A stretch of 64,000 nt of DNA from Escherichia coli (GTDB taxonomy: Bacteria; Pseudomonadota; Gammaproteobacteria; Enterobacterales; Enterobacteriaceae). Shown piece by piece: positions 62,701 through 64,000 of the stretch. Each line of letters begins with the position of its first letter. The first letter of the stretch is position 1. Location of the stretch: assembly GCF_003790525.1 (NCBI RefSeq), contig NZ_CP033635.1; one strand, written 5' to 3'. The position numbers were made by a program.

Positions 62701-64000
62701 GACGGATGAACTGCGTGCTCAGGGTTACCCCTTTAACGTAAAAACCGTGGCGGCAAGCCTGCGCCGTCAGGGACTGAGGGCAAAGGCCTCCCGGAAGTTC
62801 AGCCCGGTCAGCTACCGCGCACACGGCCTGCCTGTGTCAGAAAATCTGTTGGAGCAGGATTTTTACGCCAGTGGCCCGAACCAGAAGTGGGCAGGAGACA
62901 TCACGTACTTACGTACAGATGAAGGCTGGCTGTATCTGGCAGTGGTCATTGACCTGTGGTCACGTGCCGTTATTGGCTGGTCAATGTCGCCACGCATGAC
63001 GGCGCAACTGGCCTGCGATGCCCTGCAGATGGCGCTGTGGCGGCGTAAGAGGCCCCGGAACGTTATCGTTCACACGGACCGTGGAGGCCAGTACTGTTCA
63101 GCAGATTATCAGGCGCAACTGAAGCGGCATAATCTGCGTGGAAGTATGAGCGCAAAAGGTTGCTGCTACGATAATGCCTGCGTGGAAAGCTTCTTTCATT
63201 CGCTGAAAGTGGAATGTATCCATGGAGAACACTTTATCAGCCGGGAAATAATGCGGGCAACGGTGTTTAATTATATCGAATGTGATTACAATCGGTGGCG
63301 GCGGCACAGTTGGTGTGGCGGCCTCAGTCCGGAACAATTTGAAAACAAGAACCTCGCTTAGGCCTGTGTCCATATTACGTGGGTAGGATCACATAACCTG
63401 AAATGGCACTAATGGCCAGAGCTTACTAATACATAATCCCTACAGGATGTAGCCACCAGTTTTGTTCATCCGGTATTCTGATTTGGTAACATGCTCCAGA
63501 AAGGAAGAAATATGTACTGCAATGAATTAAAAGAATTTGCGCAAGAGCAGGAACAAAAACTTATCAGTGCGCTTGCTGATACCAGAGAGCACCCGTCCCC
63601 CGATGGTGAAACAAGAAGCCGGGATAATTATCAACGGGATTACGCGCGTATTCTGTATTCATCATCATTTCGCAGGCTGCAGGGAAAGATGCAACTTTTT
63701 GAAATTGATCCTGAAAAATTCAACAGAAACAGATTAACGCACAGTCTTGAGGTTGCTCAGATCGCCCGAAGTATCGCGTCAGACCTCAAACTGATTAACC
63801 CGGTGGTGGTTGAACTGGCAGCGCTGGCGCATGACATCGGAAATCCTCCTTTCGGTCATTCCGGTGAAAAACTGCTTAATGAACTGTCTGAAGAAATCGG
63901 CGGCTATGAAGGTAATGCACAGGCGCTACGTATCCTGAGAAAACTGGAGAAGAAATTTTCATACTGCAACGGATTAAATCTGACTCACCGTAGTTTACTT

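What the first reader, a model, noticed from the sequence alone, without database searches (positions are those of the whole stretch)
63512..64000. Island-borne dGTPase-family HD-domain gene immediately after IS3
An HD-domain dNTP triphosphohydrolase paralog lies in accessory DNA rather than at the housekeeping dgt locus. dGTPase homologs have been reported to protect against phage by depleting dGTP. Only the first ~160 codons are in the window.
Basis: partly seen in the sequence, partly recalled or inferred. Interest (0 to 1): 0.55.

Follow-up and report, generated by a model that had tools for sequence, protein, structure and literature searches.

The report
Island-borne extra dNTP-degrading enzyme gene
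The window ends in the first 163 codons of an intact accessory HD-domain dNTP triphosphohydrolase gene that about 6% of E. coli carry besides their normal dgt; it is a plausible but untested single-gene anti-phage nucleotide-depletion enzyme, so an ordinary finding with a small twist.

Summary
An ORF starts at 63512, 120 bp after a 1256-bp IS3 copy (62136-63391), and runs open to the window end. It matches dGTP triphosphohydrolase models at E 6e-55. Near-identical genomes (strain XDL: 10 mismatches over 26.8 kb) continue it to an intact 410-aa protein.

It is an extra paralog, not the housekeeping gene. The true dgt is in 5424 of 5426 complete E. coli genomes and is 24% identical. This gene is in 343 genomes, here about 35 kb into a tRNA-Phe island beside a type I restriction system.

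Relatives (54-83% identical) sit in prophages, Stx2c phages, Klebsiella conjugative plasmids and integrase-flanked islands, with no conserved partner gene. Catalytic residues are invariant and dN/dS is about 0.08.

It is not a member of the experimentally validated Sp-dGTPase clade. It is 39% identical to SpdGTPase over 332 aligned residues, and NCBIfam anti-phage models score below cut-off. PADLOC's dGTPase model also hits housekeeping Dgt, so that hit says little. The validated E. coli G177 gene occurs in only 10 genomes.

Best reading: a single-gene dNTP-depleting defence enzyme of a distinct, mobile, untested clade. Substrate range, trigger and expression after the IS3 insertion are unknown. 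It is a new member of a known kind, of modest interest.

The parts
63512..64000 (+). First 163 codons (of 410) of the accessory dNTP triphosphohydrolase gene (WP_000271619-type). It would end at window-equivalent position 64744.
   Evidence: Open frame with no stop. TIGR01353 E 5.8e-55. Full gene intact in XDL, H9Ecoli, ABU 83972 and others.
63740..63742 (+). Codon for H77, the first metal-binding histidine (RLTHSLEV).
   Evidence: Read from the sequence. Aligns to Dgt H69. Invariant in 11 orthologs.
63830..63835 (+). Codons for H107-D108, the HD motif (LAHDIGNPPFGH).
   Evidence: CAT GAC. Conserved against 9VWA, SpdGTPase, Tt-dNTPase and Dgt. Invariant in orthologs.
63857..63868 (+). Codons for H116...E119 (GHSGE), the catalytic His/Glu dyad.
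   Evidence: CAT...GAA. Corresponds to the H126/E129 dyad described for CloA and SpdGTPase (PMC12265719). Invariant in orthologs. The 9VWC/9VWG chain sequence differs from 9VWA in having Ala at this His.
63502..63507 (+). Shine-Dalgarno-like AGGAAG, 4 nt before the ATG.
   Evidence: Sequence. Identical in all alleles aligned.
63392..63511 (+). 120-bp remnant of the native upstream region. The other 283 bp of the ancestral 403-bp intergenic region are replaced by IS3.
   Evidence: Alignment with the IS3-free alleles of strains A2 and ECCRA-119. No sigma-70 consensus and no terminator found. By eye there is a TGgTAACAT extended -10-like element at about 63485-63493 (inference only).
62136..63391 (+). 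IS3 copy in the same orientation as the gene. Its orfA is frameshifted (1-nt deletion at 62223/62224) and it has no matching target duplication (ctt versus cat).
   Evidence: Annotated 'IS3 family transposase, frameshifted' in XDL and H9Ecoli. The IS3-gene junction is shared by 278 genomes.

Best explanation
The gene encodes a functional HD-domain deoxynucleoside-triphosphate triphosphohydrolase. It probably acts on dGTP and possibly on other dNTPs. It is mobile-element cargo and most likely works alone as an anti-phage, or more broadly anti-mobile-element, nucleotide-depletion enzyme. It would cut dNTPs to deoxynucleoside plus triphosphate, so an infecting phage cannot replicate its DNA, as shown for Shewanella Sp-dGTPase and human SAMHD1.

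Shown here:
- an intact ORF in near-identical genomes;
- a complete catalytic set (H77, H107, D108, H116, E119, D216);
- strong purifying selection;
- accessory, patchy distribution on islands, prophages and plasmids, beside other defence genes;
- no conserved partner gene.

Inferred, not shown: the enzymatic activity itself, the substrate range, any infection-dependent activation, the phage protection, and whether the gene is still transcribed after IS3 replaced most of its upstream region. Read-through from IS3 or a residual promoter in the remaining 120 bp are both possible.
For: Family and fold:
- TIGR01353 316.5 bits against a cut-off of 152.
- Pfam HD + HD_assoc.
- 55.6% identical over 387 aligned residues to solved structure 9VWA; matches SpdGTPase 9P8W at E 5e-48 and Tt-dNTPase 2DQB at E 9e-45.

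Catalytic residues and selection:
- All six catalytic residues are invariant in 11 orthologs.
- dN/dS is 0.07-0.09 against the Proteus and Edwardsiella orthologs.

Accessory status:
- Present in 343/5426 genomes, while housekeeping dgt is in 5424/5426 and is 24% identical.
- Lies in the island downstream of tRNA-Phe, 6.6 kb from a type I R-M operon.

Contexts of relatives:
- Proteus prophage, next to the integrase.
- Klebsiella variicola island, next to a 2092-aa NACHT protein.
- Dickeya tRNA island, directly after the integrase, with TacAT and a Z1 protein.
- Edwardsiella and Morganella lambdoid prophages.
- A cyanobacterial locus beside a type III R-M and HigBA.
- Stx2c phages, 64% identical.
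- 78 Klebsiella plasmid records (68 of all 85 matching plasmid records are typed conjugative) and one E. coli NDM-5 plasmid with the identical gene.

Published precedent: dGTPases in type I R-M and defence contexts deplete dGTP and block phages (10.1101/2021.04.26.441389; PMC12265719).
Against: - Not in the validated clade. NF041026 scores 284 bits against a cut-off of 400 and NF003701 scores 252 against 383.
- Only 39% identical to SpdGTPase over 332 aligned residues, below the 45% identity above which Tal et al. saw defence-island enrichment.
- The PADLOC dGTPase model is unspecific: K-12 Dgt scores 237 bits.
- No experiment on this gene or clade was found.
- IS3 removed 283 bp of native upstream DNA, and no consensus promoter was found in the remaining 120 bp.
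- 26 of 343 genomes do not hold at least 80% of the gene; the three listed carry only a remnant starting at gene position 530.
- The rest of the gene is outside the window.
Confidence: 0.6

Rival explanations
1. A passenger dNTP-pool enzyme with no defence role. It would be a second, housekeeping-like dNTPase (pool balancing or antimutator) that happens to ride on mobile DNA.
For: Tal et al. found that homologs below 45% identity to Sp-dGTPase are only about 10% defence-linked and may be housekeeping. This protein is below the NCBIfam anti-phage cut-offs. RefSeq names it only 'family protein'. In Cronobacter the neighbours include core-like metabolic genes.
Against: Every E. coli already has dgt. 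The gene is present in only 6% of genomes. All eight contexts examined in other taxa are variable or mobile regions, and seven of them show prophage, integrase or defence-type neighbours. It is also carried by Stx2c phages and conjugative plasmids. That pattern is typical of defence cargo, not of metabolic genes.
Confidence: 0.15
2. In this lineage the gene is a silent or decaying relic. The IS3-mediated rearrangement cut it off from its promoter, so it is intact but not expressed.
For: IS3 sits 120 bp upstream and replaced 283 bp of the ancestral intergenic region. It has no target duplication, and left flanks differ between strains, which indicates rearrangement. No promoter consensus is present. 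26 genomes lack at least 80% of the gene, and the three listed hold only a remnant from position 530. The downstream 189-aa gene is truncated to 96 codons in this lineage.
Against: The ORF is intact across the listed genomes that carry the junction, and the junction is shared by 278 genomes. The RBS and 120 bp are retained. IS3 reads in the same direction with no terminator in between, so read-through is possible. From memory, IS3 has been reported to act as a mobile promoter (Charlier et al. 1982); this was not checked here.
Confidence: 0.15
3. It is the effector of a multi-gene system. Candidates are a Clover-like dNTPase/nucleotidyltransferase pair, a pair with the downstream 189-aa membrane-like protein, or a unit with the upstream thymidylate-synthase/aGPT-Pplase3 module.
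For: Clover CloA is a related dGTPase controlled by a partner enzyme. A 189-aa ORF follows about 100 bp downstream on the same strand in five E. coli loci examined (ABU 83972, 97-3250, A2, ECCRA-119, S1-KEN-07-A). Nucleotide-metabolism genes lie upstream in the window.
Against: No nucleotidyltransferase is adjacent. CloA-type chains match only at E 4e-25. The 189-aa gene is absent next to all relatives outside E. coli and is truncated in the window's lineage. The upstream module is joined only through IS3, because IS3-free alleles have cdiB/cdiA there. Neighbours differ in every taxon examined.
Confidence: 0.05

Closest known systems
Anti-phage dGTPase of Shewanella putrefaciens CN-32 (Sp-dGTPase; Tal et al. 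2021/2022; PDB 9P8W; NCBIfam NF041026/NF003701) and its E. coli G177 homolog
   Same: HD-domain dNTP triphosphohydrolase fold. The same metal ligands and His/Glu dyad. A single gene with no partner. Found on islands near type I R-M systems.
   Different: Only 39% identical over 332 aligned residues (about 32% of full length), and the alignment breaks into two stretches. Scores are below both NCBIfam cut-offs. The protein is 410 aa against 462 aa. It has HDIGN where Sp has HDIGH. It has a conserved clade-specific N-terminal 35 residues. It is untested. The G177-type gene is in 10/5426 E. coli genomes, against 343 for this one.
PDB 9VWA / 9VWC / 9VWG, 'Deoxyguanosinetriphosphate triphosphohydrolase-like protein', 402 aa
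   Same: Same clade: 55.6% identical end to end, including the N-terminal MY..E...A.EQE segment. A close relative in the protein database is P0099.
   Different: The source organism and publication could not be identified with the library. It lacks two short insertions present in the E. coli protein.
E. coli housekeeping Dgt (b0160; PDB 4X9E/6OIY; NF003429)
   Same: Same superfamily and the same catalytic residues, including the HDIGNPPFGH motif.
   Different: 24% identity. Dgt is 505 aa with large insertions. NF003429 scores 156 bits against a cut-off of 405. Dgt is a core gene at mtn-dgt-degP, present in 5424/5426 genomes.
Clover system CloA/CloB (PMC12265719; chains 9P8S-9P8V)
   Same: A defence-island dGTPase effector of the same fold and catalytic dyad.
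   Different: Clover needs a nucleotidyltransferase partner (CloB) and dTTP/p3diT allostery. No such partner is present here, and similarity is only E 4e-25.
Thermus thermophilus TT1383 dNTPase (PDB 2DQB) and human SAMHD1
   Same: About as close in sequence as SpdGTPase (E 9e-45). SAMHD1 is the functional analogue for antiviral dNTP depletion.
   Different: From memory, both are broad-specificity, allosterically activated dNTPases. Whether this protein is dGTP-specific or broad cannot be read from sequence.

Membership tests
dGTP triphosphohydrolase subfamily (TIGR01353; Pfam HD + HD_assoc) | Score at or above the curated cut-off over the full length | tested here: met
   316.5 bits against a cut-off of 152.35, profile positions 2-386 of 389. 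The window fragment alone scores 187 bits.
dGTP triphosphohydrolase subfamily (TIGR01353; Pfam HD + HD_assoc) | H...HD...D metal ligands plus the His/Glu catalytic dyad | tested here: met
   H77, H107, D108, D216, H116 and E119 are present and invariant in 11 orthologs. The first five lie inside the window.
Validated anti-phage dGTPase clade (Sp-dGTPase; NF041026, NF003701) | Score at or above the NCBIfam curated cut-off | tested here: not met
   NF041026 scores 284.1 against 400. NF003701 scores 252.3 against 383.
Validated anti-phage dGTPase clade (Sp-dGTPase; NF041026, NF003701) | At least 45% identity to Sp-dGTPase (the operational 'close homolog' set of Tal et al.) | tested here: not met
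   130 of 332 aligned residues are identical (39%), about 32% of the 410 residues.
Validated anti-phage dGTPase clade (Sp-dGTPase; NF041026, NF003701) | Location in defence islands or mobile elements | tested here: met
   tRNA-Phe island with a type I R-M. Relatives in prophages, plasmids and islands next to NACHT, R-M and TA genes.
Validated anti-phage dGTPase clade (Sp-dGTPase; NF041026, NF003701) | Confers phage resistance and depletes dGTP during infection | not testable with these tools
   Needs plaque assays and LC-MS. No published test of this gene was found.
PADLOC 'dGTPase' (PDLC02374) | Match to the model | tested here: inconclusive
   364.6 bits, E 2e-109. However, housekeeping K-12 Dgt also scores 236.7 bits, so the model does not separate defensive from housekeeping enzymes.
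Housekeeping Dgt (NF003429) | Equivalog score and the conserved mtn-dgt-degP locus | tested here: not met
   156 bits against a cut-off of 405. The locus is an island, and the real dgt is present separately in 5424/5426 genomes.
Clover (CloA/CloB) | Adjacent CloB nucleotidyltransferase gene | tested here: not met
   No such neighbour in any of the E. coli or other-species loci. The downstream 189-aa ORF has no family hit.

The most novel reading that the evidence does not exclude
This protein, 9VWA, the Stx2c-phage copies and the Klebsiella-plasmid copies together form a separate, highly mobile dNTPase lineage. It is the predominant accessory dNTPase of E. coli, about 30 times more frequent than the validated G177 type. 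It might differ mechanistically from Sp-dGTPase, for example by hydrolysing several dNTPs or by using its clade-specific N-terminal segment to sense a different infection cue. It might protect prophages and plasmids against competing elements as much as it protects the cell against phages.
Probability: 0.3. Interest if true: 0.5.

Novelty: new member of a known kind. Interest (0 to 1): 0.3.

Why it matters
If active, this would be the common form of nucleotide-depletion immunity in E. coli. It is found in 6% of complete genomes, including ABU 83972, STEC, ETEC and multidrug-resistant lineages. It also travels with Stx2c phages, Klebsiella conjugative plasmids and an NDM-5 plasmid. That is relevant to phage-therapy host range and to which T7-like dGTPase inhibitors matter. 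Annotation pipelines currently do not call it anti-phage, and the PADLOC model that does hit it cannot tell it from housekeeping Dgt. A direct test of this clade would settle how far the 'defensive dGTPase' label can be extended. Conceptually it adds little beyond Tal et al. 2022.

Tried and rejected
- Whether the gene is one of the published tested dGTPases. It is not. The Table S5 sequences (E. coli G177, Mesorhizobium, Pseudoalteromonas, Shewanella and others) have different N-termini. G177 is 46% identical over the conserved 110-residue core only.
- Tal et al. Table S2, to read their identity and defence flag for this protein. The stored file is cut at about 40% identity and lists no strain that I could match.
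- The paper behind PDB 9VWA. Text search found only false hits, and dGTPase/dNTPase searches for 2023-2026 found no structural paper other than Clover.
- RefSeq accessions WP_000271619, WP_000271620 and WP_000271621 in the literature: none found.
- Promoter and terminator scan of 63250-63560: nothing found.
- Rfam scan of 57000-64000: nothing found.
- SMS-3-5 as the source genome: rejected, because it lacks the island.
- A partner role for the downstream 189-aa ORF: rejected, because it is not conserved outside E. coli and is truncated in this lineage.
- An ancestral link to the upstream thymidylate-synthase/aGPT-Pplase3 module: rejected, because IS3-free alleles have cdiBA there.
- The PADLOC hit as proof of a defence role: rejected after the Dgt control.

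Full report
**Observation**

The last 489 bases of the window (63512-64000, + strand) are an open frame of 163 codons. It begins at an ATG preceded by AGGAAG and has no stop before the window ends. The fragment matches the dGTP triphosphohydrolase subfamily model TIGR01353 at E 5.8e-55, above its curated cut-off. It contains codons for H77, the H107-D108 HD motif and the H116/E119 dyad, readable directly at 63740, 63830-63835 and 63857-63868.

Immediately upstream lies a 1256-bp IS3 copy at 62136-63391 in the same orientation. A 1-nt deletion frameshifts its orfA, and its flanks (ctt / cat) do not form a target duplication. The gene starts 120 bp after the IS3 end.

**Recovering the rest of the gene**

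The same 621 bp occur in 325 of 5426 complete E. coli genomes, always on chromosomes, at 99% identity or more in 319 of them. In the annotated examples the gene is 1233 nt / 410 aa and intact, and it is named only 'deoxyguanosinetriphosphate triphosphohydrolase family protein'.

The window is collinear with strain XDL. Positions 37208-64000 differ from XDL at 10 bases. In XDL the ORF continues to a normal stop.

With the whole gene as query, 343 genomes match. Of these, 317 hold at least 80% of it. The three partial cases listed carry only a remnant starting at gene position 530.

**Paralog, not the housekeeping gene**

K-12 dgt (b0160, between mtn and degP) is present in 5424 of 5426 genomes. 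It is only 24% identical to this protein, with long insertions. The window gene scores 156 bits on the Dgt equivalog model against a cut-off of 405. The 'sole orthologous dgt' refutation is excluded.

**Genomic setting**

- The window's first 25 kb are core genes (mscM, frdA, groL, aspA).
- A tRNA-Phe gene lies at 28718-28793, and the accessory region follows it. SMS-3-5, identical in the core part, lacks the island.
- Upstream of the gene lie an integrase remnant and a type I R-M operon with an AAA ATPase. Next come a MazG-like gene and an XRE/ImmA-type regulator.
- These are followed by an aGPT-Pplase3/ADDT gene, a thymidylate-synthase homologue and IS3.
- 222 genomes share at least 80% of window 56000-64000, and 278 share the exact IS3-gene junction.
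- The left side of IS3 varies. It is the fec operon with IS1 in ABU 83972, and a transposase fragment next to the type I R-M hsdR in 97-3250.
- In IS3-free alleles (strains A2 and ECCRA-119) the gene is divergent from cdiB/cdiA, with a 403-bp spacer. IS3 has replaced 283 bp of that spacer.

The present neighbours are thus a product of IS3-mediated rearrangement, not an ancestral operon.

No sigma-70 consensus and no terminator lie between the IS3 orfB and the ATG. Expression may come from a weak residual promoter or from IS3 read-through. This is unresolved.

**What the protein is**

The full protein has Pfam HD and HD_assoc domains and scores 316 bits on TIGR01353. Matches to solved structures:

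| Structure | Similarity |
|---|---|
| 9VWA/9VWC (402 aa, unidentified source) | 55.6% identical end to end |
| SpdGTPase 9P8W (identity of the entry confirmed in PMC12265719) | E 5e-48 |
| T. thermophilus dNTPase 2DQB | E 9e-45 |
| CloA chains | about E 1e-25 |
| E. coli Dgt | E 9e-22 |

The metal ligands and catalytic dyad are invariant in eleven orthologs from seven genera. dN/dS against the Proteus and Edwardsiella genes is 0.07-0.09. This is a selected, almost certainly active enzyme.

**Is it the known anti-phage dGTPase?**

Not by membership.

- The NCBIfam anti-phage models NF041026 and NF003701 score 284 and 252 bits against cut-offs of 400 and 383.
- Identity to SpdGTPase is 39% over 332 aligned residues. 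That is below the 45% above which Tal et al. saw defence-island enrichment.
- None of the eight genes synthesised in that study is this one. The validated E. coli G177 gene matches only in the conserved core. It occurs in just 10 complete genomes, where RefSeq does call it 'anti-phage deoxyguanosine triphosphatase'.
- The strong PADLOC hit (365 bits) is uninformative, because housekeeping Dgt also scores 237 bits on that model.

**Independent evidence for a defence-like role: distribution of the clade**

Database relatives at 50-83% identity are scattered over Enterobacterales, cyanobacteria and Campylobacterota. The contexts examined were all variable or mobile regions:

| Relative | Context |
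|---|---|
| Proteus | Directly beside a prophage integrase |
| Edwardsiella, Morganella | Inside lambdoid prophages |
| Klebsiella variicola | CP4-57-like island, next to a 2092-aa NACHT protein |
| Dickeya | Right after a tRNA-island integrase, with DUF6119, TacAT and a Z1 protein |
| Cronobacter | Beside QueC and a PfkB/deoxyribosyltransferase gene |
| Yersinia ruckeri | Small island with an integrase fragment |
| Cyanobacterium (Aliterella) | Next to a type III R-M and HigBA |

Stx2c-converting phages carry an unannotated 64%-identical copy about 1.8 kb from the attachment repeat at the end of the record. Seventy-eight Klebsiella plasmid records carry a 63.6%-identical copy, and most matching plasmids are typed conjugative. 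An E. coli IncI NDM-5 plasmid carries the identical gene with the same right flank as XDL.

No neighbour is conserved. The 189-aa ORF that follows in some E. coli strains is absent elsewhere and is cut to 96 codons in the window's lineage. There is no Clover-type nucleotidyltransferase.

**Mechanism proposed**

I propose a stand-alone dNTP triphosphohydrolase that lowers dGTP, and perhaps other dNTPs, so that invading phage DNA cannot be replicated. It would work like Sp-dGTPase or SAMHD1.

The enzymatic class is well supported (I put it near 0.9). The defence role rests on context and analogy (about 0.6). Substrate range, regulation and expression in IS3-bearing strains are open. Rivals are a non-defensive pool enzyme, a silenced relic, or part of a larger system. 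All are less likely for the reasons given under each.

**Novelty and score**

This is a new, untested member of a known kind of single-gene defence. Defence-annotation tools already flag dGTPases in E. coli surveys (PMC11267873). The modest twist is that this clade is distinct from the validated one, is much commoner in E. coli, and is unusually mobile. Interest 0.3.

Noticed in passing
window 60111-62032 (- strand), with 58293-58601 (-) and 59026-60108 (+): A thymidylate-synthase homologue (61052-62032) overlaps by 4 nt an aGPT-Pplase3/ADDT 'amino acid:DNA transferase' gene (60111-61055). The synthase homologue is far below the NCBIfam TS cut-offs but matches PHROG TS at 1.6e-43. The transferase gene matches Pfam PF18746 at E 5e-90. 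A MazG-like gene and an XRE/ImmA regulator (PADLOC PD-Lambda-2_B, E 9e-30) lie beside them. This is a phage-type thymidine-hypermodification module on a bacterial island. aGPT-Pplase and MazG domains are listed as predicted but unvalidated defence domains in DefensePredictor (PMC13092281). It may be more novel than the dGTPase itself.
   Followed up: partly
window 62136-63391: This IS3 copy has no matching 3-bp target duplication. It has a 1-nt deletion in the orfA A-run at 62223/62224. Its stretch 62224-62400 is diverged and mosaic relative to the intact IS3 at the same junction in strain 97-3250. Left flanks differ between strains while the right junction is shared by 278 genomes. IS3 has therefore served as a recombination joint that shuffles island cargo.
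   Followed up: partly
L023 (NZ_OP290546.1 pNDM5_LS003) 7001-8233 and flanks: A conjugative IncI plasmid carries the identical dGTPase gene with the same right flank as the chromosome of XDL (papB-like, papI, ISCR2-floR). It is inserted next to aac(3)-IIe and blaNDM-5. A piece of the chromosomal island has been captured by a resistance plasmid.
   Followed up: partly
L021 (Stx2c phage LC727889.1) 5001-6224; also LC727890.1: Stx2c-converting phages encode an unannotated 64%-identical homologue about 1.8 kb from the attachment-site repeat. The matching 364-aa protein cluster P0046 has 455 member sequences in E. coli.
   Followed up: partly
E. coli complete genomes: The experimentally validated G177-type anti-phage dGTPase gene is in 10 of 5426 complete genomes. 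The untested clade of this finding is in 343.
   Followed up: yes
window 58703-60108 (+): A 108-aa ORF with no family hit overlaps by 4 nt the start of the 360-aa HTH/ImmA-type metallopeptidase gene. The layout looks like a toxin-antitoxin or a PD-Lambda-2-like pair.
   Followed up: no
window 48094-56871 (- strand): A type I R-M operon (hsdR, hsdM, hsdS) is followed by an AAA ATPase and a 298-aa hypothetical gene. The region 48000-52000, which holds the 298-aa gene, the AAA ATPase and hsdS, has only 33-35% GC, against about 50% for hsdM and hsdR. This suggests a swapped specificity/accessory module.
   Followed up: no
L012 27637-27924 (just beyond the window end in strain XDL): The 189-aa hydrophobic ORF that follows the dGTPase gene in ABU 83972, 97-3250, A2 and others is truncated to 96 codons in the window's lineage. 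A papA remnant and an ISCR2-floR-tet(A)-strAB-sul2 resistance region replace the rest.
   Followed up: partly
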